Shown here: in pieces, positions 9,001-61,232 of the stretch
How the letters are laid out: each line of letters starts with the position of its first letter
How positions within the stretch are numbered: the first letter of the stretch is position 1
Assembly (NCBI GenBank): GCA_964016885.1
Contig: OZ024754.1
Span: forward strand, 21,576,001-21,640,000
Length of the DNA: 64,000 bases
Direction of reading: 5' to 3'
Source: Eledone cirrhosa
Lineage: Eukaryota
Made by a program: the position numbers and the translations under genes
Notes under the pieces: model-generated
What the model saw: the letters and a program-made list of their open reading frames with translations, nothing else
Database searches by the model: none
Told to the model about the DNA's origin: nothing

Positions 9001-12000
9001 ATAGGTACACCATATCCCTACATGTTGGAATAGGTGCACCATATCGCTGTATGTTGGAATAGGTGCACCATATCCTGTATGTTGGAATAGGTGCACCATA
9101 TCCCTGTATGTTGGAATAGGTGCACCATATCTCTGTATGTTGGAATAGGTGCACCATATCCCTGTATGTTGGAATTGGTGCACCATATCTCTGTAGGTTG
9201 GAATAGTTGCACCATATCCTTGTATGTTGGAATAGGTGCACCATATCCCTGTATGTTGGAATAGGTACACCATATCCCTGTATGTTGGAATAGGTGCACC
9301 AAATCCCTGTATGTTGGAATAGGTGCACCATATCCTTGTATGTTGGAATAGGTGCACCATATCCCTGTATGTAGGAATAGGTGCACCATATTGCTGTATG
9401 CTGGAATAGGTGCACCATATCCCTGTATGTTGGAATAGGTGCACCATATCTCTGTAGGTTGGAATAGGTGCACCATATCGCTGTATGTTGGAATAGGTGC
9501 ACCATATCCTTGTATGTTGGAATAGGTACACCATATCCCTGTATGTTGGAATAGGTGCACCATATCCCTGTATGTTGGAATAGGTGCACCATATCCCTGT
9601 ATGTTGGAATAGGTGCACCATATCCCTGTATGTTGGAATAGGTGCACCATATCCCTGTAGGTTGGAATAGGTGCACCATATCCCTGTATGTTGGAATAGG
9701 TGCACCATATCACTGTATGTTGGAATAGGTGCACCATATCTCTGTATGTTGGAATAGGTGCACCATATCCCTGTATGTTGGAATAGGTGCACCATATCCC
9801 TGTATGTTGGAATAGGTGCACCATATCTCTATGTTGGAATAGGTGCACCATATCCCTGTATGTTGGAATAGGTGCACCATATCTCTGTATGTTGGAATAG
9901 GTGCACCATATCTCTGTATGTTGGAATAGGTGCACCATATCCCTGTATGTTGGAATAGGTGCACCATATCCCTGTATGTTGGAATAGGTGCACCATATCC
10001 CTGTATGTTGGAATAGGTGCACCATATCTCTATGTTGGAATAGGTGCACCATATCTCTGTATGTTGGAATAGGTGCACCATATCCCTGTATGTTGGAATA
10101 GGTGCACCATATCTCTATGTTGGAATAGGTGCACCATATCGCTGTATGTTGGAATAGGTGCACCATATCCCTGTATGTTGGAATAGGTGCACCATATTGC
10201 TGTATGTTGGAATAGGTGCACCATATCTGTAGGTTTAAATAGGTACACCATATCCCTACATGTTGGAATAGGTGCACCATATCGCTTCATGTTGGAATAG
10301 GTGCACCATATCCCTGTATGTTGGAATAGGTGCACCATATCCCTGTATGTTGGAATAGGCGCACCATATCCCTGTATGTTGGAATTGGTGCACCATATCC
10401 TTGTATGTTGGAATAGGTGCACCATATCTCTGTATGTTGGAATAGGTACACCATATTGCTGTATGTTGGAATAGGTGCACCATATCCCTGTATGTTGGAA
10501 TAGGTGCAACATATCGTTGTATGTTGGAATAGGTGCACCATGTCCCTTTATGTTGGAATAGGTGCACCATATCGCTGTATGTTGGAATAGGTGCACCATA
10601 TCTCTAGGTTTAAATAGGTGCACCATATCCCTGTATGTTGGAATAGGTGCACCATATCCCTGTATGTTGGAATAGGTGCACCAAATCCCTGTATGTTGGA
10701 ATAGGTGCACCATATCGCTGTATGTTGGAATAGGTGCACCATATCTCTGTATGTTGGAATAGGTGCACCATGTCGCTGTATGTTTGAATAGGTGCTCCAT
10801 ATCCCTTTATGTTGGAATAGGTGCACCATATCGCTGTAGGTTGGAATAGGTGCACCATATCGCTGTATGTTGGAATAGGTGCACCATATCCCTGTATGTT
10901 GGAATAGGTGCACCATATCCCTGTATGTTGGAATAGGTGCACCATATCCCTGTATGTTGGAATAGGTGCACCATATCCCTTTATGTTGGAATAGGTGCAC
11001 CATATCCCTGTATGTTGGAATAGGTGCACCATATCCCTACATGTTGGAATAGGTGCACCATATCCCTTTATGTTGGAATAGGTGCACCATATCCCTGTAT
11101 GTTGGAATAGGTGCACCATATCGCTGTATGTTGGAATAGGTGCACCATATCCCTGTATGTTGGAATAGGTGCACCATATCTCTATGTTGGAATAGGTGCA
11201 CCATATCTCTGTATGTTGGAATAGGTGCACCATATCCCTGTATGTTGGAATAGGTGCACCATATCCTTGTATGTTGGAATAGGTGCACCATATCCCTGTA
11301 TGTTGGAATAGGTGCACCATATCCTTGTATGTTGGAATAGGTGCACCATATCCCTACATGTTGGAATAGGTGCACCATATCCCTGTATGTTGGAATAGGT
11401 GCACCATATCCTTGTATGTTGGAATAGGTGCACCATATCCCTACATGTTGGAATAGGTGCACCATATCCCTGTATGTTGGAATAGGTGCGCCATATCCTT
11501 GTATGTTGGAATAGGTGCACCATATCCCTACATGTTGGAATAGGTGCACCATATCTCTGTGTTGGAATAGGTGCACCATATCTCTGTATGTTGGAATAGG
11601 TGCACCAAATCCTTGTATGTTGGAATAGGTGCACCATATCCTTGTATGTTGGAATAGGTGCACCATATCCCTGTATGTTGGAATAGGTGCACCATATCGC
11701 TATATGTTGGAATAGGTGCACCGTATCCCTGTATGTTGGAATAGGTGCACCATATCCCTGTATGTTGGAATAGGTGCACCATATCCCTGTATGTTGGAAT
11801 AGGTGCACCGTATCCCTGTATGTTGGAATAGGTGCACCATATCCCTGTATGTTGGAATAGGTGCACCATATCCCTGTATGTTGGAATAGGTGCACCATAT
11901 CCCTTTATGTTGGAATAGGTGCACCATATCTCTGTAGGTTGGAATAGGTGCACCATATCCTTGTATGTTGGAATAGGTGCACCATATCTCTGTATGTTGG

Positions 12001-15000
12001 AATAAGTGCACCATATCCCTACATGTTGGAATAGGTGCACCATATCGCTGTAGGTTGGAATAGGTGCACCATATCGCTGTATGTTGGAATAGGTGCACCA
12101 TATCCCTGTATGTTGGAATAGGTGCACCATATCCCTGTATGTTGGAATAGGTGCACCATATCCCTTTATGTTGGAATAGGTGCACCATATCCCTGTATGT
12201 TGGAATAGGTGCACAATATCTCTGTAGGTTTAAATAGGTGCACCATATCGCTGTATGTTGGAATAGGTGCACCATATCTCTGTAGGTTTAAATAGGTGCA
12301 CCATATCCCTGTATGTTGGAATAGGTGCACCATATCTCTGTAGGTTGGAATATGTGCACCATATCTCTATGTTGGAATAGGTGCACCATATCGCTATATG
12401 TTGGAATAGGTGCACCATATCCCTGTATGTTGGAATAGGTGCACCATATCCCTGTATGTTGGAATAGGTGCACCATATCCCTGTATGTTGGAATAGGTGC
12501 ACCATATCCCTTTATGTTGGAATAGGTGCACCATATCTCTGTAGGTTGGAATAGGTGCACCATATCCTTGTATGTTGGAATAGGTGCACCATATCTCTGT
12601 ATGTTGGAATAAGTGCACCATATCCCTACATGTTGGAATAGGTGCACCATATCGCTGTATGTTGGAATAGGTGCACCATATCCCTGTATGTTGGAATAGG
12701 TGCACCATATCCCTGTATGTTGGAATAGGTGCACCATATCCCTTTATGTTGGAATAGGTGCACCATATCGCTGTATGTTGGAATAGGTGCACCATATCTC
12801 TGTATGTTGGAATAGGTGCACCATGTCGCTGTGTTTGAATAGGTGCTCCATATCCCTTTATGTTGGAATAGGTGCACCATATCACTGTATGTTGGACTAG
12901 GTGCACCATATTGCTGTATGTTGGAATAGGTGCACCATATCCCTACATGTTGGAATAGGTGCACCATATCGCTGTATGTTGGAATAGGTGCACCATATCC
13001 CTGTATGTTGGAATAGGTGCACCATATCGCTGTATGTTGGAATAGGTGCACCATATCCCTGTATGTTGGAATATGTGCACCATATCGCTGTATGTTGGAA
13101 TAGGTGCACCATATCCCTCTATGTTGGAATAGGTGCACCATATCTCTGTATGTTGGAATAGGTGCACCATATCTCTGTATGTTGGAATAGGTGCACCATA
13201 TCTCTGTATGTTGGAATAGGTGCACCATATCCCTGTATGTTGGAATAGGTGCACCATATCACTGTATGTTGGAATAGGTGCACCATATCCCTGTATGTTG
13301 GAATAGGTGCACCATATCTCTGTATGTTGGAATAGGTGCACCATATCTCTGTATGTTGGAATAGGTGCACCATATCTCTAGGTTTAAATAGGTACACCAT
13401 ATCCCTGTATGTTGGAATAGGTGCACCATATCCCTGTATGTTGGAATAGGTGCACCATATCCTTGTATGTTGGAATAGGTGCACCATATCCCTACATGTT
13501 GGAATAGGTGCACTATATCCCTGTATGTTGGAATAGGTGCACCATATCCTTGTATGTTGGAATAGGTGCATCATATCCCTACATGTTGGAATAGGTGCAC
13601 CATATCCCTGTATGTTGGAATAGGTGCACCATATCCTTGTATGTTGGAATAGGTGCACCATATCCCTACATGTTGGAATAGGTGCACCATATCCCTACAT
13701 GTTGGAATAGGTGCACCATATCCCTGTATGTTGGAATAGGTGCACCATATCCTTGTATGTTGGAATAGGTGCACCATATCTCTGTATGTTGGAATAGGTG
13801 CACCATATCTCTGTATGTTGGAATAGGTGCACCAAATCCGTGTATGTTGGAATAGGTGCACCATATCTCTGTAGGTTGGAATAGGTGCACCAAATCCTTG
13901 TATGTTGGAATAGGTGCACCATATCCCTGTATGTTGGAATAGGTGCACCATATCGCTGTAGGTTGGAATAGGTGCACCATATCTCTGTAGGTTGGAATAG
14001 GTGCACCATATCCCTGTATGTTGGAATAGGTGCACCATATCCCTGTATGTTGGAATAGGTGCACCATATCCCTGTAGGTTTAAATAGGTGCACCATATCC
14101 CTGTATGTTGGAATAGGTGCACGATATCCCTTTATGTTGGAATAGGTGCACCATATCGCTGTATGTTGGAATAGGTGCACCATATCCCTTTATGTTGGAA
14201 TATGTGCACCATATCGCTGTATGTTGGAATAGGTGCACCATATCGCTGTATGTTGGAATAGGTGCACCATATCTCTATGTTGGAATAGGTGCACCATATC
14301 CCTGTATGTTGGAATAGGTGCACCATATACCTGTATGTTGGAATAGGTGCACCATATCCCTGTAGGTTGGAATAGGTGCACCATATCGCTGTATGTTGGA
14401 ATAGGTGCACCATATCCTTGTATGTTGGAATAGGTACACCATGTCCCTTTATGTTGGAATAGGTGCACCATATCGCTGTATGTTGGAATAGGTGCGCAAT
14501 ATCTCTGTAGGTTTTAATAGGTGCACCATATCGCTGTATGTTGGAATAGGTGCACCATATCTCTGTAGGTTTAAATAGGTGCACCATATCCCTGTATGTT
14601 GGAATAGGTGCACCATATCTCTGTAGGTTGGAATCGGTGCACCATATCTCTGTATGTTGGAATAGGTGCACCATATCGCTGTATGTTGGAATAGGTGCAC
14701 CATATCCCTGTATGTTGGAATCGGTACACCATATCTCTGTATGTTGGAATAGGTGCACCATATCCCTGTAGGTTTAAATAGGTGCACCATATCCCTGTAT
14801 GTTGGAATAGGTTCACCATATCCCTGTAGGTTGGAATAGGTGCACCATATCTCTGTAGGTTTAAATAGGTGCACCATATCGCTGTATGTTGGAATAGGTG
14901 CACCATATCTCTGTATGTTGGAATAGGTGCACCATATCCCTGTATGTTGGAATAGGTGCACCATATCTCTGTAGGTTGGAATAGGTGCACCATATCGCTG

Positions 15001-15386
15001 TATGTTGGAATAGGTACACCATATCCCTGTAGGTTGGAATAGGTGCACCATATCCCTGTATGTTGGAATAGGTGCACCATATCTCTGTAGGTTTAAATAG
15101 GTGCACCACATCCCTGTATGTTGGAATAGGTGCACCATATCCCTGTATGTTGGAATAGGTACACCATATCCCTGTAGGTTGGAATAGGTGCACCATATCC
15201 CTGTATGTTGGAATAGGTGCACCATATCTCTGTAGGTTTAAATAGGTGCACCACACCCCTGTATGTTGGAATAGGTGCACCATATCCCTGTATGTTGGAA
15301 TAGCTGCACCATATCTCTGTAGGTTGGAATAGGTGCACCATATCGCTGTATGTTGGAATAGGTGCACCATATCGCTACATGTTGAA
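1..15386. repeat. 29-bp tandem satellite/minisatellite array (about 530 units in window, continues beyond left edge)
   Basis: Consensus GGTGCACCATATCCCTGTATGTTGGAATA repeated head-to-tail, with 27- and 28-bp deletion variants. Variation is concentrated after CCATAT (CCCTG/CGCTG/CTCTG/CCTTG/CCCTAC/CCCTT). Ends at ...CGCTACATGTTGAA. Confidence 0.99.
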
Positions 15387-21601: not shown

Positions 21602-21877
21602 AAAACAATGAAATTAAACAAAAAACAGTTAATTCATAGTACAACTCATTATTTTACGATCGTTTCTGGGTGGGTAGTTCCCCGTATGTCTATTCTATTA
21701 TTGATCTATGTAAAATATATTACAAAATATCATAGTAAGAAAATATACATACGTCTTCACTACCCGCCGTCTTCAGAAATAATATAATAGATATACGGGG
21801 AACTACCACCCAGAAACAATCGTAAAATAATGAGTTGTACTATGAATTAACCGTTTTTTGTTTAATTTCATTGTTTT
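21602..21877. mobile_element. Inverted-repeat element (Penelope pLTR-like) containing a hammerhead ribozyme
   Basis: Arms of about 90 bp at 21602-21692 and 21788-21877 are reverse complements. Followed by (TA)n. Confidence 0.75.
21649..21782 (-). ncRNA. Type I hammerhead ribozyme with very long stem II
   Basis: Minus strand: TTATTT-CTGAAGA-[about 103-nt irregular hairpin: GGGTAGT/ACTACCC, CGTATGT/ACATACG]-GAAAC-GATC-GTA-AAATAA. Stem I is 6 bp and stem III is the palindrome ACGATCGT. Confidence 0.7.
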
Positions 21878-35978: not shown

Positions 35979-36071
35979 ACGTATCTGAGGAACCTGCGAA
36001 TCCAGAGTCAGGTTCGATCCACAAACAGATCGCACCTCGAGCTGTTCGCCGGAGAAACAATTGTAATACGT
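35979..36071 (+). ncRNA. Type I hammerhead ribozyme, long-stem-II family, copy 1 (element about 35966-36185)
   Basis: ACGTAT-CTGAGGA-[62-nt hairpin: CC/GG, GCGAAT/GTTCGC, AGGT/ACCT, CGATC/GATCG]-GAAAC-AATT-GTA-ATACGT. Confidence 0.8.
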
Positions 36072-40029: not shown

Positions 40030-43000
40030 CATCATCATCATCATCATCATCATTTTACGTCAGGCTTTTCCCTGCTTGCAAGGGTGGGACGGGTCTTATT
40101 CAGCACAGCATCTCTCCACTCGTCACGGTCCCTCGTCCCCCGTGAGCTTCAATGATCTGAGGTCTGTTCTCACCACCTCCGCCCAAGTTTTTCGTGGTCT
40201 ACCTCTACCACGTCTTCCTTCAACTGGCATTTCCTGGCACTTCTTCACCCATCGGTCATCCTCCATGCGCATCACATGTCCATACCACCTCAGTCTCCTC
40301 TCCCGTACACTACATTCTATCCCTCTCAGACACAGTTTCTCTCTCAACACATTTATGCTGGGTCGTTCACGCACATTTACACTGCACATCCAACGGAGCA
40401 TGCTTGCCTCATTTCTCTCCAGCCGTCGCATATCCTCTGTGGTTGCTGCCCATGTCTCACTACCATGCAGCATCGCGCTCCTCACACAGGCATCATACAA
40501 CCGGCCTTTCGTACGCAGGGAGAAACCCTTCTTCGTCAACAGAGGAAGCAGCTCCCTAAACTTCTTCCAACCCGTCCTTATTCTAGATACTATGGTCTCG
40601 GAACACCCTACTCCCATGCTAATCTGATCTCCTAGGTACCGGAAGCTATCCACCACTTCTATAGCGCCCTCTCGCATTTGAAAAATGTGTCTATCAGTGC
40701 GACTTCTACTGTCTAATTTCCCTGTACATCTACTGCATACGTATTTCTCCCTACCTGTTAGTTTGCCTGCTATCCCGTTACATCTCTTGTGTACCCAGGA
40801 CCTGCATTGTGTGCATTTTATAGAATTTATGCCAGTTCCTTTTCTGCATATCGAACATGGCCATTTCCCTGACAGAATCAGGGTTTTGTCCTCTTTTCTA
40901 CTCATCAACACTTTTGTCTTAGCTAGATTTACTCTCAGTCCTCTTGCTTCCAACTGCTGTTTCCATAGCCGGAATTTATTCTCTAGCTCCTCTACTGATT
41001 CTGCTATAAGAGCCAGATCGTCAGCATAGAGAAGTTCCCATGGACAGCCAGTCTTAAACTCCTCTGTTATGGCTTGGAGGACTATAATGAACAAGAGCGG
41101 GCTGAGGACCTAACCCTGATGTACTCCTACTTGTATCTGGAATTCCTCACTAAACTCCATTCCTACCCTGACTTTACTGAGAGTACCTCTGTACAAAGTT
41201 TGCACTGTCCTCACAAGCCATTCCTCAACACCTAGCTTCCTTAGGGACCACCAGATGACAGATCGGGGTACCCTATCAAAGGCCTTCTCTAGGTCAACAA
41301 AGGCTAAGTATAGTGGCTTATTCTTCTCTAAGAACCTCTCTTGCATTTGTCTCACCAAGAAGAGGGCATCTGTTGTACTCTTCCCAGGCACAAAACCAAA
41401 CTGCATCTCATCTAGTTTGACCCTTTCTCTAATTAGTTGTGCTAAAATCCTTTCTGCCACTTTCATAACCTGATCTATCAGTTTTATACCCCTACAATTG
41501 CTCATCTCCAAAGCATCCCCTTTACCTTTGTAGCAATTTATGAGAATACTGCTGCACCAGTCTTTGGGTATGACACCACCATATATAGCCTGATTGATGA
41601 TGCGTGCAACCAGTTTAGTGCCTACGTCCCCTGATGCCTTCAGCATCTCAGCAACTATTCCCGATGGTCCGGCCGCCTTACCATTTTTCATTTCCCTAAT
41701 CGCCTCTTGGACCCTATATTCGTCAATCTCAATAGCTGGTCCCTCTGTCAGATCTACCAAGGGTAATTTCTCTCTCTCCCATTCGTTCTCCACATTCATC
41801 AGTCTCTCATAATGACATTTCCAGGCCTCCTTTTTCTGGTCATTCGTGACACTAAGTACACCGGCATCATCCCGGACACATTTATCTCCAACAACATCCT
41901 GATTTGCATTGACACGCTGCCTTGCAATGTGGAACACCGCACGCCTCTGATCTTCCCGTCGCAGAACATTGGCAAACCTCCTACTCTCTGCCTCCCTGCG
42001 TGCTAAGTACACCTGACGTCTAGCTTCTCTCTTAGTGGCTGTATATTCTTCCCTACTCCCACCCTTTTTCCAAGCCTTCCATGCTAGTCTTTTGTCTCTA
42101 ATAGCCTTATCTACTGTGCTGTTCCACCACCAGGTCACTCTCTGTCTGGTTGGAGCTCTGCTCCAGCCACAGGTTTCATCAGTAGCCTGCAGCAAGTTGT
42201 CACGTAAGAACTTCCAGTTATTATCTATGTCATACGTCTCTAAATCGTCTTCTTTTTCGTCATATACATCTTGAAGGGCTTTCCTAAATTTGAATTTTAG
42301 TGAAAGGTCTTTTAGCTTCCAGACCTTTCTTCTCCACACCTTCCTATATGTCTCATTCCATCTCTTGCTTACTGAGATATCACTAACAACTAACCTATGC
42401 TGTGGGGTACATTCTTCCCCAGGGTATGCCTTGGTATTAGACACTATCTGCCTGTCCCGCTGCCTAACTAGCAGGAAGTCAATCTGGCTTATGTGCTCAC
42501 CAGATTTGTAGGTTATTAGGTGATTGGCAGGTTTCTGGAAGTTTGTGTTGCAAATAGTCAATGTACTTGCATCACAAAATTCAAGAAGTCTCACTCCTTC
42601 TTCATTTCTTGAACCGTAACCGTGCCCACCATGTACCCCAGTATAACCATCCTGGAGCTGTCCAACATGACCATTGAAGTCTCCTGCTAGCATAACGATG
42701 TCTCCGTCCTCTGTCATTGTGGTTGTTTGCAAAAGTTGCTCATAAAAGCAGTCTTTCTCATCTTTGCCTAGGCCTGCTTGGGGAGCATAGACCGAGATGA
42801 TTGTCAGTAGTCTCCTACCTACAACTAATCTAAGCTTAATTATTCGATTACTAACTCGAACTACCTCTATTGTCTTATTGATCCATTTCTCAGCCAGGAA
42901 AATGCCTACTCCTCCTAACCCATCATCCTTACCTACCCAGAATAGCTTATAGCTAAGACGCTTGCCTACGACTAGTCTCGCAGAGGCACCTCTCCATCTC

Positions 43001-43310
43001 ACCTCTTGCACGCAGCACACATCCACCTGCCTTCTCTCCAGCATCTCCGCTATTTCAGCAGATCTACCTCTGAGAGTGCCAACATTAAGTGTTGCAACTC
43101 TGAGATGCGACGTCTTCATATTTTTCTATGCTGTTTTGTTGCTGTGCTGATAAGCTTTTTGGCATTGATACACTGGTTGGATGCCCTTCCTAACACCAGC
43201 ACCACTTTACAGCATGGACTGGGTGCTTTTATTTGTGCCACCAGCACTAGAGAGGATGTCTTACTAGACTGAAGGGCCCTCTCTACCCCTCCATTTTACA
43301 GCATGGTCAT
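40030..43310 (-). mobile_element. Near full-length RTE-clade LINE, family A (APE endonuclease, RT, PHD-like finger), with one nonsense codon
   Basis: ORF 43119-41110 (TLNVGTL, VQEVRW, AGDFNGHVG, IDFLL, QFGFVPGKST, FVDLEKAFD, GVHQG*) continues in frame as 41094-40123 ([35 protein letters not shown]). (GAT)n tail at 40030-40052. Confidence 0.97.
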
Positions 43311-43880: not shown

Positions 43881-46850
43881 AAATAAATTATACAATTTTT
43901 AAAGTTGTTCAAATCATTTAATAGCTGACAATCGTTTCTTCCAAACTCTCGTTTGGAATCATCAGAGCATTATCAATGTTTGCACATAATTACCCTCCTA
44001 TTCAACTGAACAATAATATAGACGCATATAAATTGATGTTGTGAGCAACAGTTTCGTATTTGCAGGGTGGAATGGATGTAACATATATTTTACGAGAATT
44101 GTACAATAATTGTACAAACATTCAAGTTCAAATTCAAATTCAAATCAAATTAAAATCAAATTAAAAGCAAAAGCATGGAGTTAAATACATGCAACAGATA
44201 AAACAAGAGAATAGTCCAATCATTAAAGAGGCATTTAGAAAGGAAGAGTACATTAACAATTCATTTGCAGGCGTGTGGTGAGTGCAACTGCATAAGTCAT
44301 GTATATGAGGAGACAAGCAAAGCTATTATGCATATATAGATGAGTAAATACTGCACTTTAAGCAAATATGTTAACGTATTAGAATCTATGGTGGATGCTG
44401 TATGCTGATAGCGTTCGAATTTGTGTGTGTTGAGAAACGTAGTGTTTGCAGACTTTTCCATCACATATGTTGAATTAAATTTTAGTTAATGTTTATATTG
44501 AATGTTTTAAGTTAGTTAGTGCAATGGATTGTAAATTAGTTTTAATGTATTCATATTCATAGACTATATTTCCGGTAAATTTTCCAATTGTTAATTTCCG
44601 GAAGTGAATAAGGGGAGCTAATGCCGAAGGGGAGGTAACTAGCTAATTAAGTTCAATTCAGTTATTAAAATTCTTTGCTCTAATACACAATATAATGTGA
44701 TACCATTGAATATCTATTACATAATGCTGTATATTTATACCTGATTTTAAATACAGTCTATTTTACTATCATACATTTAAGGTCCCCTTAGATTGTTATG
44801 TATTCATTACTGGACAAGATATATGTTATGAAGAATTGTATAGCTGTTAATATGTCTAAATAGATATATCATATGTGTAATAATATACATTATTGTTTTA
44901 AAAGTTAATCCCTAATATACAATGCTATTACATTTTATATTTAATAATAAATGTATATATACTTTATTATTATTATATACATGTTAAATATTTAAGTATT
45001 TAATTATACAATTATAAATGCATATATAGTTTATTATCACATATTACATTAAATGTCTCTACATACATTATACATATCCATTACTGTATATAATATAATT
45101 AATCTATTGTGGTTATATCACAAGGTGGTAACTCTATGTCTAATTCTAACTGTTATTGCAGAGCATAAGGTTAGAGATGAATAGGAGTTGTGTAGCGGAA
45201 AGAGTTGGTCGAAGGGTTTGTGGTTGTGGGTGCTGCTAAGTCCTAGATGTGTAGTGTTAATGGTGGTGGGGAATTCAAATCTGACATTGTTGTATACTAA
45301 CAGCTAGGTTTAAAGTTATGGAACGAGTGCTGGTACTGGTGTTGGCACGAGGAAAATGTCTCTGACTTTCTATTAAGGAGGTCTGGTTTCGAAAAGATTA
45401 TAGTATGGGTCTCCAGAAGGCAGAGATTACACATTTTATTCGGTGGTTTATACGATGAGGCCCTACCTACTACTTCCATTGCAGTGTAAATGGTCTATTC
45501 CTAGTTTTCAGAGAGTGTATGTAGCTAGATAAAGAAGTGGAGCTGGCTAGATTGTGTTTCTTGAAAGAGTGGAGGTGCGAGTTGTATCTCGTCTTGAAGT
45601 TGTTCGAAGTAGAACCTATATATGTTTTAGATTTGTTTGCGTTGACAGTGCATAAGTAGATGATGTCTTTGGTTAAGCAATTATTACCTAAGGGGCAAGT
45701 TCTATTAGTTCTACAGTTACATTTATTCTGGGTGTTAGCTTGCCGGTTCCTATGTTGTGAAGAATTCTGGTTGCTAGGGTAGCACTAGGGTAATGATGTC
45801 TATCATTCGTATTGATTTCATTAGTGCTATTATCATTATTACTATTATTACTACTATAGTTTACAGGTACTAAGTTTACCTCCTGTTGTGTTTTAATTAT
45901 TTGGAAATAGTTATTAATCTTCCTTTTATTACTACTAGCTATATGGTATGCTATGTTAGGTGTGGTGGAGTACGATATTTTAATTGTATTTTTATTGATA
46001 AGGCTATGGTACTTGTGGCCGGTCGGGAAGTTTTTTTCTAAGATTGAGAAGAAAGCCTTAGGCAAGTTGGTAGAGACGTTTATATTGAAAAGGGGGTTGA
46101 AGAATGTATTAGTTCTCCTATTTTTGTTTATATTATTGTTTTTTGAGGTATTCATATCCCTGTTTAAATTATTATTGTGGTGTTTACTTTGGTGCGAGTT
46201 AAGTTTGGTATTAATCTTCGTCCTAGAGTTATAGTGGCTAGTGCTTTTACTATTTTTCCTCATGGCCATATTATGAGAAATAATGTTGTAACTATGTGAT
46301 TTTATAGGTAGGAATTCAATCTCATATGTCCTGATTTAGCTAAGGCCTCATTATAGTATTGTGAATTGTTGTTAAATATGGTTTCATTATATGATAGATT
46401 AGAGATTCTATTAGATATTCCTTTGGTAATGGAGTTTAATATGGATTTAGGGTGGTTAGAGTTGGTATTCACATAAATTAGTTTTTCGTTAGGTTTATGA
46501 TAGGGTGTGTATATTTTAGAGTCTAGGCTAAGGGTAGCGTCAAGGCAGTTGACGTTTTTAGTGTTTTTATCTAAGGTGATACTTAAGTTGAAGTTTTTGA
46601 AATTTTGTGTAACTGTTTCCTAGTTCTTTCTATATTAAATGTTTTATAGTCTATGAGAAGAAGCGCATCAATGCGGTATAAACCACCTGTAAATATGAAA
46701 CTGTTGCTCACAACATCAATTTATATGTATCTATATGTTCAGTTGAATAGGAGGTTAATTATATGTGCAAACATTGATAATGCTCCAATGACTCCAAACG
46801 AGAGCTATTAAATGATTTGAACAACTTTGATAATTGTATAATTTATTTAT
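43881..46850 (-). mobile_element. 5'-truncated Penelope-like retroelement (Neptune type) with inverted pseudo-LTR
   Basis: Minus-strand remnants include the RT C-terminus (NCLDATL..YTPYHKPN..IYVNTNSNHP), FFNPLFNINVSTN..KNFP..KISYS, a Cys linker CNC..CPLGNNCL, GIY-YIG (IIY..TYIGST..FKTRYNSH) and CNLCLLE..LLNRKSE. Inverted repeat arms at 43881-44070 and 46683-46850. Confidence 0.9.
43919..43972 (-). ncRNA. Type I hammerhead ribozyme in the Penelope pLTR
   Basis: Minus strand TAATGCT-CTGATGA-TTCCAAAC-GAGA-GTTTGGAA-GAAAC-GATT-GTC-AGC(T)ATTA. Perfect 8-bp stem II with a GNRA loop and a GUC cleavage triplet. Confidence 0.88.
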
Positions 46851-49260: not shown

Positions 49261-52200
49261 ATTTAAAACCTCTCGCTAACTACCCCATTTGTTTTTCTAA
49301 AATAACAATCTTGTTTGTTTAAATTTGGCCGAAAACAATTCTAGGATTTATAAAATGGCCTCATTGTCTCTCTTATCCTTTACCCCGCCCCCCACTATAT
49401 CGTATTACGCGCTGGCTAGTTCACCCTCAGTTCACCCTTTCAATCACTCCCTTCTCTCACCAAATATAAACAAACCTGTTGCGAGGTACGAATCTCAGAA
49501 TTTGTCAACGCTTTAAATGGTCAGACCCTCGTCGTTCTCTGCGAAGTATAATGTAAATGCCATTTTTCTTATCTCTCTCCAGCCTATCGGTCCATTCATT
49601 CATATTGTTCTAAATAATCTTCTCTCTGCTATTGGTCCATTCATTCATATATCCGTACCTTCGCCCAGAATCCAATCTTTTGCTCTCTCTCAATGCTATT
49701 CTATAATTCTGTCTGGTTGTTTCTAAATAATCTTCTTGTATTTTAAAACCCCATTATTCGCTTATTATTACTGTTATATGCTTCCCCAATTATGCCCAAA
49801 ATTCAAATATTTCATTTAAAACCTCTCGCTAACTACCCCATTTGTTTTTCTAAAATAACAATCTTGTTTGTTTAAATTTGGCCGAAAACAATTCTAGGAT
49901 TTATAAAATGGCCTCATTGTCCCTCTTATCCTTTACCCCCCCCCCCCACTATATCGTATTACACGCTGGCTAGTTCACCCTCAGTTCACCCTTTCAATCA
50001 CTTCCTTCTCTCACCAAATATAAATAATCTTCTCTCTGCTAACTACCCCATACCGCTCCCTCCCGCCCCCACTCTCCACCTTATTATTTGGACCAATCAC
50101 AAGTCAACGGCCTATGCTATCACTTCTGGCTGCTTTTCGATATGATGGATGGACTAAGGAATTTCTGGAGAGTCTGAAGAATCTGGACACTCGATGACAA
50201 TGCCAAAGATAACGACAAATTCACCTCATGCTGCCGGACGAAAGGGCAAGGCCCCTTCCTCTTTGTTTCGGCTGCGGATGGCCAACATAACCCCAACCCC
50301 ATCCCCCTCACCCCTCCCTGCGCCCCATCCTCCAAACACAATCCAAAACTTCAGAGTTGGTACCATGAATGTAGGCACCTTAAAAGGCCGCTCTAACGAG
50401 GTTGTAGAAATGCTTGAACGTAAGGAGGTTGATGTTTGCTGTATCCAAGAGACCAGGTGGAGGGGCAGGTCTGCTAGATGTGGGTAAAAAACGTTGCTAT
50501 AAGCTTTTCTGGGTGGGAAATGACAATGGGATAGGTGGGGTAGGAATCATGTTAGCAGAAAAATGGGTGGATAAGATAATAGATGTAAATAGAGTAAATG
50601 ACAGAATAATTAAAATAAGACTTGTTCTAAATAGAACTACTGTGACAGTATATCTGCATACGCGCCCCAATCCGGACTGCTTGGCGCTATAAAAGACAGA
50701 TTCTATGAGACACTGATGCTCACTACCTCCCAAATAACCGACAGTGACTATATAATTATTGCTGGCGACCTAAATGGCCACGTTGGACAACATTGTGACG
50801 GCTATGACGGAATCCACAGAGGCTATGGGTTTGGTACTAGAAACGAGGAAGGCTCCAGAATCCTGGAATTCTGTGATGCAAATAACCTAACTATTTGTAA
50901 CACTAACTTCAAAAAACGAGACAATCACTTGATCACCTACAGATCAGGGGAACATACCAGCCAGGTAGATTATATCCTTACCAGAAGACGTGACAGAGTG
51001 TCTGTTGTAAACACTAAATCCCTCCCCCATGAAGAATGCACCTCCCAACATTGACTGATAATTAGCGACCTCATAGTCAGGACGAGACGTACTAGACAGC
51101 AGAAGAGGGCTATCCTCAGGAGAAAAATATGGAAGCTAAAGGACCCTACAGCCAGAAATAAATTTAAAAGCATATTACTTGATGCTTTCGACAGTAAGGA
51201 AGAGCAATTAGAGTCGTACAATATAGAGGAACAGTGGGAATTTCTGAAAGCAAACCTGCTGATGGCGGCAGACGAGGTCTGTGGCTGGAGCAGGCCTGTA
51301 GGCAAGAGGAGAGTAACATGGTGGTGGAACAGTAAGGTGGAGGAGTCAATTAAGGCCAAAAAGCAGGCTTGGAAAGTATGGCGGGATGGGGGAAGTAGAG
51401 AGGACTATCAAGTGGCCAGGAGGGAAGCTAGGAGACAAGTGTACTTCGCAAGAAGGGAAGCAGAGGAGAGAAAGTTCAAGCATGTTCTACAACGCGAGGA
51501 CCAAAAACGTGAGGTGTTCAGGATTGCTAAGCAATGTGTCAAGGAAAACCGTGATATTGTCGAGGAGAAGTGTATACTAAATGATGATGGCATACTTGCC
51601 ATCACTGACGCTGATAAGAAGGTAGCTTGGAAGTGTCACTACGAAAGGCTACTAAATGAGGAGAATAAATGGGAGAAAGACAGTCTTCCCCCACATCGAC
51701 CCAATAGAGGGACCAGCAGTGTTAGTTGAAGGTAGTATAATAAGTAAGGCAATCAAAGATATGAAGACGGGTAAGGCGGCTGGGCCTTCGGAAATAGTTG
51801 CTGAGATGCTGAAAGCCTCTGGAACGGTAGGACACACCATGGTCACCCGGATAGTAAACCAAGTCATACAGAATGGGGTTGTTCCGAAGGACTGGCGTAG
51901 CAGCATCATCATTAACTGCTACAAGGGTAAAGGAGACGCCCTAGATAGGAGTAACTATAGAGGCATTAAATTAATCGCCCAGGTCATGAAGGTCACGGAA
52001 AAAGTAATAGCGCAACTAATCAGAGAGAGAATTGATCTAGATGAAATGCAGTTCGGGTTTGTATCAGGCAAAAGTACCACAGACGCTCTTTTCATTGTAC
52101 GACAACTACAGGAGAAGTACCTAGCTAAAAGTAAACCCCTATACTTAGCTTTTGTTGACTTGGAGAAAGCCTTCGACAGAGTTCCCCGTTCCATTATCTG

Positions 52201-53720
52201 GTGGGCCCTTAGAAAACTAGGTGTTGATGAATGGCTTGTGAGAGCTATACAAGCCATGTATAAAGAAACAGTCAGCAAGGTTAGAATTAACAACGAATAT
52301 AGTGAAGAGTTTAGCGTAAAAGTAGGTGTTCATCAGGGCTCTGTTCTTAGCCCCCTACTATTTATTATTGCCCTTCAGGCTATAACAGTGGAGTTCAAGA
52401 CCGGTTGACCATGGGAACTCCTATACGCAGATGATCTAACGCTCATAGCTGAATCAATGGCCGAGCTAGAGAAGAAATTCCAAACATGGAAGCACAGCCT
52501 AGAATCAAAAGGCCTTAAAATTAACCTGGCTAAGACTAAAGTTCTAGTTTGTAGGAAAGAAAATAAGGCGCCGGTCCCTTCCGGGAAATGGCCATGCTCA
52601 GTGTGTAGGAAAGGCGTAGGTAGAAACTCCATTTTATGTCCCAAATGCAAAATATGGGTGCATAAAAGATGTAGTGGGATCACAGGTAAGCTAACTAAGA
52701 ACACAGATTTTACATGTGGCCGGTGCTCTGGTGCAATAAGTAGCAGCAAGTGCCCACAAAATGCTAGCTCTTTCAATTGCGCAGAGGGTTCTATAGAAAT
52801 AGTGGACAGCTTCCGTTACCTGGGTGACAAAATCAGCAGTGGGGGAGGGTGCTCCGAAAGTACAGTAGCTAGAATCAGAACTGGATGGAAAAAGTTCAGA
52901 GAGCTTATACCACTATTAGCCGCTAAACGGTTCTCCCTAAAAATGAAAGGCAGGCTGTCTGATGCCTGCATACGAACAGCAATGTTGCATGGCAGTGAGA
53001 CCTGGGCATTGTGTGCAGAGGATATACGCAGACTAGAGAGGAACGAAGCTTGCATGCTCCGCTGGATGTGTAATAGTAATATACGTGAACGGCAAAGCAT
53101 AAACGAACTAAGGGAAAAATTAGAAATAAGAGGGATCAGATGTTGTTTACTTGAGAGAAGACTACGTTGGTATGGTCACGTGATGCGCATGAAAGACGAC
53201 AGCTGTATAAAAAAGTGCAGGGCAATAAAGATAGACGGTAGCCACGGAGTATGCAGACCCAGAAAAACCTGGGACGACCTGATAAATTCCGACCTCACAC
53301 ACTTACACCTCTCCAAGACAATATCACTGGACCAAGATCTTTGGCGGTACTCAGTAATAGAGAAGACCCGCCTTACCTAAATACAAAGTAAAACCTACTA
53401 CAGTCAGTAGGCATCTCTAACAAAATACACCCCCGTCCCATCCACACCGCCCCTTTCAATGTAAAGTTATGTTGGTGCCACAACATCCAGGCTGAAACAA
53501 ATGAGATCGTTTAAGTGTCACAACAAAAAAAAACACACAGTCCACGCTGTAATGTGGCCGTGTAGGCAACTCGGTAAAAACCTCCCAGTCCCACACTGTA
53601 AATGTGGTTGGTGTTAGGAAGGGCATCCAGCTGTAGAAATCAAGCCAGAATCAGTTCCCGTCCCACCCTTGCAAGCAGGGAAAAGCGGATGTAAAATGAA
53701 ATGATGATGAATGATGATAA
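49261..53720 (+). mobile_element. Full-length but disabled RTE-clade LINE, family B, with tandemly repeated 5' region
   Basis: APE and RT pieces at 50194-53380 (TMNVGTL, IQETRW, AGDLNGHVG, QFGFVSGKST, YADD, PHD-like CSVC..CPKC..HKRC..CGRC). Broken by frameshifts near 50478, 50650 and 51690 and by stops at 51052 and 52406. 49261-49470 recurs at 49814-50024. The exact 5' boundary is uncertain. Confidence 0.92.
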
Positions 53721-53869: not shown

Positions 53870-54019
53870 TAGAAGTGGTTACACAACAGTTAGTTCACCA
53901 TACCGAGAACAATTGTTTCACCTTAGCAGATCCTCAGCTCGTAATGGACATTGTTCTGTATAACCATGTCCATTACTTGTTCTCGGTATGGTGAACTAAC
54001 TGTTGTGTAACCACTTCTA
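53870..54019. mobile_element. Inverted-repeat element (43-bp arms) overlapping a hammerhead ribozyme
   Basis: TAGAAGTGGTTACACAACAGTTAGTTCACCATACCGAGAACAA and its exact reverse complement, with an inner hairpin GTAATGGACAT/ATGTCCATTAC. Confidence 0.8.
53904..53941 (-). ncRNA. Minimal type I hammerhead ribozyme
   Basis: Minus strand CGAG-CTGAGGA-TCTGCTAAGGT-GAAAC-AATT-GTT-CTCG. Stem I is perfect, stem III is palindromic and stem II is weak. Confidence 0.65.
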
Positions 54020-54139: not shown

Positions 54140-55580
54140 TCATCGTCATCATCATTTTACGTCCGCTCTTCCCTGCTTGCAAGGGTGGAACGGGTCTTAT
54201 TCAGCACAGCATCTCTCCACTTGTCACGGTCCTTCGTCATCTCCACCGTGAGCTTCAGCGATCTGAGGTCTGTTCTCACCACCCCCAACCATGTTTTTCG
54301 TCGGTCTCCTCTCCCATACACTACATTCTATCCCTCTCAGACACAGTTTCTCTCTCAACTCATCCATGCTGGGTCGTTCACACACATTGACACTGCACAT
54401 CCAACGGAGCATGCTTGCCTCATATCCTCTGCAGTTGCTGCCCATGTCTCATTACCAAGCAACATCGCGCTCCTCACACAGGCATCATATAACCGGCCTT
54501 TCGTACGCAGGGAGAAACCCTTCTTCGTCAGCAGAGGAAACAGCTCCCTAAACTTCTTCCAACCCGTCCTTATTCTAGATACTATGGCCTCGGAACAGCC
54601 CCCTTTCATGCTAATCTGATCTCCTAGGTACCGGAAGCTATCCACGACTTCTATAGCACCCGCCTGCATTTGAAAAATGTGTCTATCAATGCGACTTCTA
54701 CTGTATACATATTTCTCCCTAGCTGTTAGTTTGCCTGCTATCCCGCTACATCTCTTGTGTACCCGTGCATTTTATAGAATTTATGCCAGTTCCTTTTCTG
54801 CATATCGAATATGGCAATTTCCCTGACGGAATCAGAGTTTTGTCCTCTTTTCTACTCATCAACACTTTTGTCTTAGCTAGATTTACTCTCAGTCCTCTTG
54901 ATTCCAACTGCTGTTTCCATAGCCAGCATTTATTCTCTAGCTCCTCTATTGATTCTGCTATAAGAACCAGATCGTCAGCATAGAGAAGTTCCCATGGACA
55001 GCCAGTCTTAAACTCCTCTGTTATGGCTTGGAGGACTATAATGAAGAAGAGCGGGCTGAGGACCGAACCTTGATGTACTCCTACTTGTATCTGGAATTCC
55101 TCACTAAACTCCATTCCTACCCTGACTTTACTGACAGTACCTCTGTACAAAGTTTGCACTTTCCTCACATGCCATTCCTCAACACCTAGTCTCCTTAGGG
55201 ACCACCAGATGACAGATTGGAGTACCCTATCAAAGGCCTTCTCTAGGTCAACAAAGGCTAAGTAAAGTGGCTTATTTTTCTCTAAGAACCTCTCTTGCAA
55301 TTGTCTCACCAAGAAGAGGGCCTCTGTTGTACTCTTCCCAGGCACAAAACCAAACTGCATCTCATCTAGTTTGACCCTTTCTTTAATTAGTTGTGCTAAT
55401 ATTCTCTCTGCCACTTTCATAACCTGATCCATCAGTTTTATGCCCCTATAATTGGTCCTCTCCAGAGCATTCCCTTTACCTTTGTAGCAATTTATGAGAA
55501 TACTGCTGCACCAGTCTTTGGGTATGACATCACCATATATAGCCTGATTGATGATGTGTGCAACCAGTTTAGTGCCTACG
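54140..55580 (-). mobile_element. 5'-truncated, internally deleted RTE LINE, family A
   Basis: ORF 54746-55432 is near-identical to the RT of 40030-43310, with intact HQGSVLSP and YADD. Confidence 0.93.
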
Positions 55581-55811
55581 TATATATATATATATATTCA
55601 TATGTATGTGTATATATATATATATATATATATACACGTATGTATATATATATATATGAATAAATTTAGTCCTTCATCAGTGATCTTCCAACCTTAATTG
55701 GTATTTCATCGCTTTAATACATACGTATGTATATATATATATTTATATATATATATATATGAAAGACGTAAACAAGAAAATTATGAAAATCGACTTACTT
55801 ACTAAAATTTC

Positions 55812-55892
55812 ACTTCAACTAATTAGTTTCTGTAAGGGAATAAATATGGTTACGGAGCGTACCCACAGAGAAACCTTACGTCATCAGGAAGT
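55812..55892 (-). ncRNA. Type I hammerhead ribozyme
   Basis: Minus strand ACTTC-CTGATGA-C-GTAAGG...CCTTAC-A-GAAAC-TAATTA-GTT-GAAGT. Confidence 0.82.
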
Positions 55893-56449
55893 CTATTCTC
55901 AGCTAAGCTCCCAGGCAATGTGAGGACACTGGGAACTTATATAAAAATAATTCAGTGGATTCTGTGGGTACGCTCCGTAACCATATTTATTCCCTTACAG
56001 AAGTTGGAGTGAAATTTTAGTAAGTCGATTTTCATAATTTTCTTATTTACATCTTTCATATAATTGTTCTGCATCCCCTTGCATAGAACCACAAAGTTAC
56101 TAAGACAAAACATATATTTGCTAGCATAGGTATGCATCTGTATACATATGTTAGTAGATATACTAATTCTTTATAATTATCTCCAAATTATTTGTTGAGC
56201 AAAACTTGCCGAAATTACTACTATGGTTCATGGTATTGGCTAGGCCCTTGTCTTATTAGCACTCCACTCCTCACTGATTAACCTCAGTGTCACGTGATTG
56301 ATTCTTTTGAATTTGCCACTGACCAAGTAGGCAGTGAATTTTTTCAATGTCTTGGAATTTAGTCCCCGCTCGCTTTTTTCCATCCACTGAATTATTTTTA
56401 TATAAGTTCCCAGTGTCCTCGCATTGCCTGGGAGCTTAGCTGAGAATAG

Positions 56450-56530
56450 ACTCCCTGATGACGTAAGGTTTCTCTGTGGGTACGCTCCGTAACCATATTT
56501 ATTCCCTTACAGAAACTAATTAGTTGGAGT
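56450..56530 (+). ncRNA. Type I hammerhead ribozyme
   Basis: ACTCC-CTGATGA-C-GTAAGG...CCTTAC-A-GAAAC-TAATTA-GTT-GGAGT, with the stem III palindrome AACTAATTAGTT. Confidence 0.82.
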
Positions 56531-56777
56531 GAAATTTTAGTAAGTAAGTCGATTTTCATAATTTTCTTATTTACGTCTTTCATATAATTGTTCTGCATCC
56601 CCTTGCATAGAACCACAAAGTTACTAAGACAAAACATATATTTGCTAGCATAGGTATGCATCTGTATGTATATATATATACATATGTATGTATATATATA
56701 TACATATGTATGTATATATATATATATATATACATATGTATGTGTATATATATACATATGTATGTATATATATATAC

Positions 56778-56832
<55 letters not shown>

Positions 56833-56866
56833 TACATATGTATGTATATATACATATATACATATG

Positions 56867-56916
<50 letters not shown>

Positions 56917-56980
56917 TACATATGTATGTATATATATATATACATATGTATGTATATATATATATATATATATACATATG

Positions 56981-57038
<58 letters not shown>

Positions 57039-57056
57039 CATATGTATATATATATA

Positions 57057-57517
57057 TGTAGCGAAATCTGTCCACGCCTTGAACCTCGGGTGACACCTAA
57101 AAGTCAAATTATAGGTCACCATCCTTTCCGGCGTGGACAGGTTCATGCGTGGGCGATCCCTTCGAGGTGGGAGACAGAAAGCGACAGGTATATAAAGACT
57201 GTATGATCCCACGTCTAACATATAGTAGATCGAAACAGTACGCTATAGTATAGCTATGTAAAGATTCACCACAACTACAGGCCGCCGAGGTCTACAGACA
57301 ACCACAGACCATTACTCTCTCTCTCTCTCCTGGTCTCAGACTACACCAGCCTCATGAACCAACAACAAAATAACATCGTCAACCTTCGCAACTCGTGATA
57401 ACTTGTTAATCATTCTTTTTGACTGAAGTGAAGTAAACCTTTTTATATATAAAGTAAATCAGCTATTCCTGTTATTTCATCTAACAACCATTACTAATAC
57501 CTTTGTTACCAACTACA
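57057..57517 (+). mobile_element. Probable solo LTR
   Basis: Begins TGTAG and ends CTACA, about 460 bp. Has TATAAA near 57191 and AGTAAA polyA-like signals near 57432 and 57453. The target duplication is not clean. Confidence 0.5.
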
Positions 57518-61016: not shown

Positions 61017-61136
61017 GGTGTTGGATGCTTAAAGCGTCCGTATCCGGTAGGTCGTTTGAGTACTCGATGCTCTCACAGAGCAGAGTATGATATCACAAAA
61101 AAAGAGAATCAGTGTTGCGACGAATGGAATTTATTG

Positions 61137-61232
61137 GACATATTACAATCGTTTCTCTGGCGACCATCTCGAAGCACGATCGATGTGATGATCGAACTTG
61201 ACTCTGAAAATCGCAAGGTCCTCAGATACGTC
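61137..61232 (-). ncRNA. Hammerhead ribozyme, long-stem-II family, copy 3 (element about 61013-61240)
   Basis: Minus strand GACGTAT-CTGAGGA-[GCGATT/GGTCGC, AAGT/GCTT, CGATC/GATCG]-GAAAC-GATT-GTA-ATATGTC. Confidence 0.8.

What the first reader, a model, noticed from the sequence alone, without database searches (positions are those of the whole stretch)
55761..56670. Two otherwise near-identical hammerheads differ by a clean compensatory pair in stem I
Seen: the minus copy has ACTTC/GAAGT and the plus copy has ACTCC/GGAGT, while the 71 nt between are identical. Two of the few differences between the 200-bp arms fall on the two partners of one predicted base pair. A third copy (55961-56145) lacks the palindromic stem III (GAA[ACTAATTA]GTT). 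Stem II closes with a C.A mismatch, as at 21649 and 61137. Inference: direct evidence of structural constraint, or of templated repair within the hairpin, and of a recurring non-canonical core variant.
Basis: partly seen in the sequence, partly recalled or inferred. Interest (0 to 1): 0.7.

Follow-up and report, generated by a model that had tools for sequence, protein, structure and literature searches.

The report
Chance double mutation in retrozyme copy
The matching pair of changes in this predicted self-cutting RNA motif is most likely a coincidence in one of thousands of copies of an ordinary non-coding jumping repeat; the real signs that the fold is conserved lie between the repeat's subfamilies.

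Summary
In this subfamily 38 of 1,079 copies have T and 10 of 704 have A; only the window copy has both. All 30 fetched T copies are T·G, 8 of 9 callable A copies are C·A, and independence predicts 0.2-0.35 doubles. At two neighbouring pairs 1 of 23 changes is compensated, so hairpin repair is not needed. The locus is one insertion of a 525-bp non-coding tandem repeat (at least 2,875 copies; retrozyme, Penelope-type): two divergent arms in (TA)n, with outer ends at two fixed sites (71 of 88 insertions use one of each). Structural constraint is real but shows between subfamilies: compensated pairs in stem II and its hairpin, and a compensating insertion in stem I. The C·A is fixed (216 of 223), but stem II base mismatches, C·A included, are already tabulated for Penelope hammerheads (Craig 2021, File S2). 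The stem III deletion is private decay. The scan reported such two-armed retrozymes before, on other DNA.

The parts
55756..55960 (-). Inverted, 5'-truncated arm (unit positions 237-441); outer end at fixed site A, running into (TA)n; carries all four derived differences
55812..55892 (-). Type I hammerhead with the singleton T-A pair (T at 55889, A at 55815 on the minus strand; stem I ACTTC/GAAGT)
55961..56145 (+). 5'-truncated first monomer of the plus arm: no CUGAUGA half; private 8-nt stem III deletion, 4-nt deletion and one G>A
56146..56670 (+). Complete 525-bp monomer, 36% GC, longest sense stop-free stretch 41 codons
56450..56530 (+). Type I hammerhead in the subfamily's majority state: stem I 56450-54/56526-30, CUGAUGA 56455-61, C56462·A56511 mismatch, stem II 56463-68/56505-10 with a distal hairpin, GAAA 56512-15, palindromic stem III 56515-24, GUU triplet with predicted cut after 56525
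56575..56592 (+). Site A (unit 441, window 56586), one of two preferred outer ends of insertions; ends in TATA before ATT
56160..56182 (+). Site B (about 30 nt into the next unit, about 114 nt beyond A), the other preferred outer end; same TATA|ATT context; this tail is absent from the outer end of the window's own plus arm
55577..55760 (.). Left (TA)n/(TATG) microsatellite flank, likely the target
56665..57057 (.). Right (TA)n microsatellite flank

Best explanation
The T-A pair is likely two independent mutations that happened to hit partner bases in one arm of a single insertion of a 525-bp non-coding hammerhead repeat, which was likely copied into a TA microsatellite by Penelope-type enzymes. 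Shown: the tandem unit, the divergent two-arm layout, the paired fixed ends, the TA flanks, independence of the two positions across copies, and structure-keeping changes between subfamilies. Inferred: tandem transcripts self-cleave after GUU, probably as dimers (stem III hairpin +1.5 kcal/mol against a 10-bp homoduplex at -9.0). A Penelope RT/endonuclease supplied in trans nicks both strands of (TA)n and starts reverse transcription at site A for one arm and site B for the other, on an uncut multimer or a ligated circle. After insertion each arm decays neutrally. Selection acts only on the few source copies, which is why covariation is seen between subfamilies and not among dead copies.
For: T variant 38 of 1,079 (13 of the 38 in one tandem array); A variant 10 of 704 in the same subfamily; the two coordinate lists share only the window locus. 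30 of 30 fetched T copies are T·G; 8 of 9 callable A copies are C·A. Expected doubles 0.17-0.35, P(at least one) 16-30%. Neighbouring stem I pairs: 1 of 9 and 0 of 14 compensated. Variant rates at three stem I G positions are alike (10, 10 and 16 copies against about 704). All four arm differences are derived on the minus arm. Opposite arms of other loci differ by a median 2.1% (n=14), against 2.0% here, with a strand-symmetric spectrum. A second subfamily carries T·G as its majority state (395 T, 18 C). Architecture: 88 of 128 insertions are two-armed, 71 of 88 pair end A with end B, 1 is A-A and none B-B; 167 of 216 outer ends run into TA.
Against: The per-locus chance is low (0.31%), and one more clean double was found at the adjacent pair (L137), making 2 of 32 with the index case. 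Exact-match patterns miss copies with further changes, so all counts are of the better-preserved copies. 8 of the 38 T copies were checked by coordinates only. No autonomous partner was identified, and no cleavage or expression evidence was obtained.
Confidence: 0.85

Rival explanations
1. Templated correction inside the hairpin: a change on one strand of stem I is copied onto its partner when the cDNA or RNA folds back.
For: Two clean singleton doubles (window; L137 at the neighbouring pair) among 32 callable 3'-strand variants.
Against: Leaving out the index case, 1 of 31 is compensated, against about 0.5-1 expected from background rates (my arithmetic). At least 30 T·G and 8 C·A copies stayed uncorrected.
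Confidence: 0.06
2. The minus arm came from a rare source lineage that fixed U-A through a U·G intermediate under selection.
For: U·G is a viable state: it is the majority in a subfamily of at least 395 copies, so the path C-G to U·G to U-A is open.
Against: No second copy of this subfamily has T-A. The minus arm matches the plus arm at the other 201 sites, including lineage markers. None of 18 lineage representatives has U-A at this pair (10 U·G, 8 C-G). The 3 T-A copies in subfamily 2 are single G>A changes on a T background.
Confidence: 0.06
3. The two arms were copied from different monomers or molecules, or gene conversion brought in the T from the U·G subfamily, followed by one G>A change.
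For: All four differences sit on the minus arm, and the G at 56569 occurs in 8 other copies.
Against: The bases next to the T keep subfamily-1 markers (GTAAG, CTTAC). Opposite arms at other loci agree at a lineage marker and differ about as much as here.
Confidence: 0.03

Closest known systems
Metazoan non-LTR retrozymes (Cervera and de la Pena 2020, PMC7229834, parts 2-3 of 6 read; Li, Clavereau and Pollet 2026, bioRxiv 10.64898/2026.07.22.740005, parts 1-2 of 5 read)
   Same: Non-coding tandem units under 50% GC, each with a type I hammerhead and a weak palindromic helix III; thousands of copies; proposed Penelope origin. Axolotl HHR_Amex2 has a U·U mismatch at the base of helix II and still cleaves, better as a dimer.
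   Different: The unit is 525 bp, above the 150-450 bp of the 2020 paper but inside the 51-972 bp of the preprint. Stem II carries a long loop with an extra hairpin. Circular RNA was not shown here.
Hammerheads and insertion structure of Penelope-like elements, especially the Hydra clade (Craig et al. 2021, PMC8557442: passages, end of File S1 and File S2 read; Cervera and de la Pena 2014, PMC4209133, parts 1-2 of 4 read)
   Same: Partial tandems, an inverted 5'-truncated copy, a tail at one end only, (TA)n targets. In File S2, 15 of 25 Hydra-clade families have a mismatch at the base of stem II (14 T·T, 1 T·C), 10 of 25 cut after GUU, and PLE-X1_cBra has the same ctgatgac...agaa (C·A) core (my count).
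   Different: No RT or endonuclease ORF. The two end sites are about 114 nt apart, not 30-40. Loop II is much longer than in the File S2 motifs.
Poseidon element of Anolis, two internal RT start sites (Frangieh et al. 2024, PMC11167929, passages read)
   Same: Both target strands are cut and extended; two RT start sites define the genomic ends; hammerhead cleavage is not needed for insertion in vitro.
   Different: That element is autonomous, with start sites 30-40 nt apart; here the element is non-coding and the A-plus-B pairing is read from genomic copies only.

Membership tests
Type I hammerhead ribozyme | Core CUGANGA, GAAA and NUH, in order, between three stems | tested here: met
   H17 is T in 219 of 223 copies
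Type I hammerhead ribozyme | Stems kept by compensating changes | tested here: met
   18 lineage representatives: 94% of cells paired, 6 pairs changed on both sides, slid controls 28-43% paired (related sequences, so few independent events); matched insertion in stem I
Type I hammerhead ribozyme | G10.1-C11.1 pair directly adjoining the core | tested here: not met
   C·A precedes the G-C pair in 216 of 223 copies; the same deviation is listed for published Penelope hammerheads
Type I hammerhead ribozyme | Match to an Rfam hammerhead model at the gathering score | tested here: not met
   0 Rfam matches in the window; the long loop II probably explains this (inference)
Type I hammerhead ribozyme | Self-cleavage | not testable with these tools
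   needs an in vitro assay
Non-LTR retrozyme | Tandem non-coding unit with a type I hammerhead, GC under 50% | tested here: met
   525 bp, 36% GC, 41-codon maximum on the sense strand; no common internal region next to the units stood out among 134 loci (read by eye)
Non-LTR retrozyme | Two or more consecutive units with complete hammerheads (the preprint's 'active' criterion) | tested here: inconclusive
   Not met at this locus (one complete motif per arm); met at other loci of the family such as L005 and L046-L058
Non-LTR retrozyme | Linear and circular monomer RNA in vivo | not testable with these tools
   no usable RNA data
Non-LTR retrozyme | Target-site duplication | not tested
   flanks are microsatellite
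Non-autonomous Penelope-like element | Inverted 5'-truncated copy abutting a partial tandem | tested here: met
   88 of 128 insertions are two-armed and divergent
Non-autonomous Penelope-like element | Fixed 3' ends with a tail at one end only | tested here: met
   71 of 88 pair A with B, 1 A-A, 0 B-B; spacing about 114 nt against 30-40 in print
Non-autonomous Penelope-like element | (TA)n target bias | tested here: met
   167 of 216 outer ends
Non-autonomous Penelope-like element | Shared end with an autonomous RT plus GIY-YIG partner in the genome | not tested
   no partner search was run; the window ORFs scanned are LINE-type RTs

The most novel reading that the evidence does not exclude
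Penelope-type reverse transcription occasionally corrects one strand of the hammerhead's stem I against the other, so clean compensatory doubles (this copy, L137) arise in one step at a low rate and help the ribozyme diversify while keeping its fold.
Probability: 0.06. Interest if true: 0.65.

Novelty: new member of a known kind. Interest (0 to 1): 0.2.

Why it matters
Mostly a caution: one compensatory pair between two copies of a large repeat family is not evidence of selection or repair until the family is counted. The useful residue is a natural series of source lineages. Stem I keeps its helix through C-G, U·G, bulged and 6-bp forms, the stem II hairpin changes sequence but not shape, and the C·A never changes. 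That gives ready-made constructs for testing whether C·A hammerheads cleave, and whether one arm from each of two start sites is the general Penelope insertion rule.

Tried and rejected
Rfam scan: no match. Sequencing-run search: no RNA holder listed; laying three contig sets of unrecorded kind, one sample, gave nothing locus-specific. Unconstrained folding of the 91-nt motifs gave z of only -1.5 to -1.7 and an alternative pairing of the core, so folding energy alone is no support. The first similarity search was biased towards C-G copies and was not used for frequencies. Five A variants in the ACTTCC lineage looked like a compensated lineage, but they are 5 against 876 pattern matches, which is background. 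A linear monomer template ending at the cut site is not supported: 5 of 176 inner arm starts lie within 5 nt of it. RNA-editing scars: no A>G excess in the nearest loci (A>G 43, T>C 55). A role for the stem III deletion was rejected: it occurs only at this locus among 160 fetched, in a fragment with no 5' core. A literature search on C10.1/A11.1 numbering gave nothing relevant. Lunse et al. 2017 is not held (title only) and may describe further core variants; the preprint's supplements were not seen.

Full report
Observation. The two arms, 55756-55960(-) and 56382-56586(+), are 205 nt and differ at four sites: 56421, 56453, 56527 and 56569 in plus-arm numbering. 56453 (C/T) and 56527 (G/A) face each other in stem I of a type I hammerhead: ACTCC, CUGAUGA, C, stem II GTAAGG/CCTTAC with a distal hairpin, A, GAAA, the palindrome ACTAATTAGT, T (GUU, cut predicted after 56525), GGAGT. 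The third copy has the 8-nt deletion described, plus a 4-nt deletion and one substitution, but it starts inside loop II and has no 5' core. Rfam finds nothing in the window.

What it is. The window lies in a 3.0-Gb genome. The 26-nt 3' half of the motif occurs 2,875 times; this is a lower bound, since one lineage has an extra G that the pattern cannot match. Fetched loci show a 525-bp unit in head-to-tail arrays, 36% GC, with at most 41 stop-free codons on the sense strand. No common coding region next to the units stood out in an all-against-all comparison of the masked flanks of 134 loci (read by eye). Of 128 distinct insertions in 160 loci (the 13 loci of one long array left out), 88 are two divergent arms, and 167 of 216 outer ends run into TA repeats. 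The outer ends fall at two sites about 114 nt apart: 71 of 88 two-armed insertions use one of each, 1 uses A twice and none uses B twice. Inner starts are scattered; 5 of 176 are within 5 nt of the cut site. The window's minus arm ends at A, and its plus arm ends at unit position 525 without the B tail. This is the Penelope insertion pattern described by Craig et al. 2021 (passages) and explained by two RT start sites in Frangieh et al. 2024 (passages), on a non-coding unit of the retrozyme kind.

In the window's subfamily (stem II GTAAG/CTTAC) the 5' pattern occurs 1,079 times, 38 with T (13 of these in one tandem array). The 3' pattern occurs 704 times, 10 with A. The T and A coordinate lists share only this locus. 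All 30 T copies fetched (of 38) are T·G. Of the 10 A copies, one lacks the 5' half, 8 are C·A (two of them a duplicated locus) and one, the window, is T-A. Independence predicts 0.17-0.35 doubles, P(at least one) 16-30%. The other 16 of the 26 A copies belong to subfamily 2: 5 lack the 5' half, 5 are ACTTCC, 2 are C·A, 1 is G·A and 3 are T-A. In that subfamily T·G is the normal state (395 T against 18 C), so those three are single changes. As a replication I took two neighbouring pairs: G1>A is compensated in 1 of 9 callable copies (10 found; L137) and G4>A in 0 of 14 (16 found). Without the index case that is 1 of 31, as background predicts. Against my reading, with the index case it is 2 of 32, and a low rate of templated correction cannot be excluded. 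All four arm differences are derived on the minus arm. Opposite arms of other loci differ by a median 2.1% (14 pairs), against 2.0% here, with 64% transitions and no strand bias. A simulation gives 0.31% for a clean double from four random changes, so about three are expected per thousand copies. Limits: exact patterns see only the better-preserved copies, and most fetched loci come from the first contigs listed.

Where constraint really shows. Of 22 sequence clusters with three or more members (218 of 257 copies clustered, array copies thinned), 21 fold into the same 6-bp stem II, internal loop and distal hairpin; the 22nd was mis-anchored by my pattern. On 18 representatives, 94% of cells pair and six pairs change on both sides, all in stem II and its hairpin (for example U-A 10 / A-U 8 and U-A 10 / C-G 8); slid controls pair 28-43%. 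These are related lineages, so the number of independent events is small. The stem I pair of the finding is only C-G (8) or U·G (10) among them. Stem I itself runs through ACUCC/GGAGU, ACUUC/GGAGU, bulged ACUUCC/GGAGU and a lineage with a matching inserted G, ACUUCC/GGGAGU (10 of 30 fetched). All keep the helix (-2.5 to -5.8 kcal/mol), whereas the C·A form (+0.1) did not appear as a lineage state among those sampled.

The C·A. It is present in 216 of 223 complete copies and in the unrelated motifs near 21649 and 61137; other hammerheads in the window have A·A, T·T or T-A there. It is not new. [quoted passage not shown] File S2 of Craig et al. lists a mismatch there in 15 of 25 Hydra-clade families and the same C·A core in PLE-X1_cBra (my count). 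An axolotl retrozyme hammerhead with U·U there cleaves. Whether C·A cleaves has not been tested here; two searches turned up no paper on it in their listings, and Lunse et al. 2017 could not be read.

Mechanism. Shown: the architecture, the paired ends, independence of the two positions and lineage-level covariation. Inferred: dimer cleavage (hairpin +1.5, homoduplex -9.0 kcal/mol), mobilisation by a Penelope enzyme in trans with one arm from each start site, a multimer or circular template, and neutral decay afterwards.

Verdict. The sequence observation is real and the headline inference is not supported. Interest 0.2.

Noticed in passing
window 56443-56447 and 56470-56474: GAGAA just upstream of stem I is complementary to TTCTC in the internal loop of stem II; both are present in 218 of 268 copies. 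A possible stem I-loop II contact, with no covariation evidence.
   Followed up: partly
L163-L165, L172, L173, L175, L176, L179, L188, L189: Lineage with a 6-bp stem I (ACTTCC/GGGAGT): an insertion on one strand matched by one on the other; relatives keep only the 5' insertion as a bulge.
   Followed up: partly
L046-L058 (G000:C5:84.69-84.72 Mb): Tandem array of this unit over at least 30 kb, with variant units recurring along it.
   Followed up: no
window about 21640-21770(-), 35980-36065(+), 43915-43970(-), 53890-53945(-), 61130-61230(-): Further hammerhead-like motifs of other families, each with a palindromic stem III and a mismatch or A-closed pair at the base of stem II; 35985 and 61225 are relatives.
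   Followed up: partly
window 60224(-)/60273(+), 57676(-)/59562(+), 62581(-)/62587(+): Three more back-to-back inverted pairs with CTGANGA cores, probably two-armed insertions of other families.
   Followed up: no
window 1-15384: 29-bp satellite, about 533 copies, 91% matches.
   Followed up: no
window 40123-43125(-), 51656-53380(+), 54746-55597(-): Broken LINE-type elements: RT, an AP-endonuclease domain in one, and a PHD finger after the RT in two.
   Followed up: partly
L137: A second singleton clean compensatory double, at the stem I pair next to the one in the finding (ACTCT/AGAGT).
   Followed up: partly
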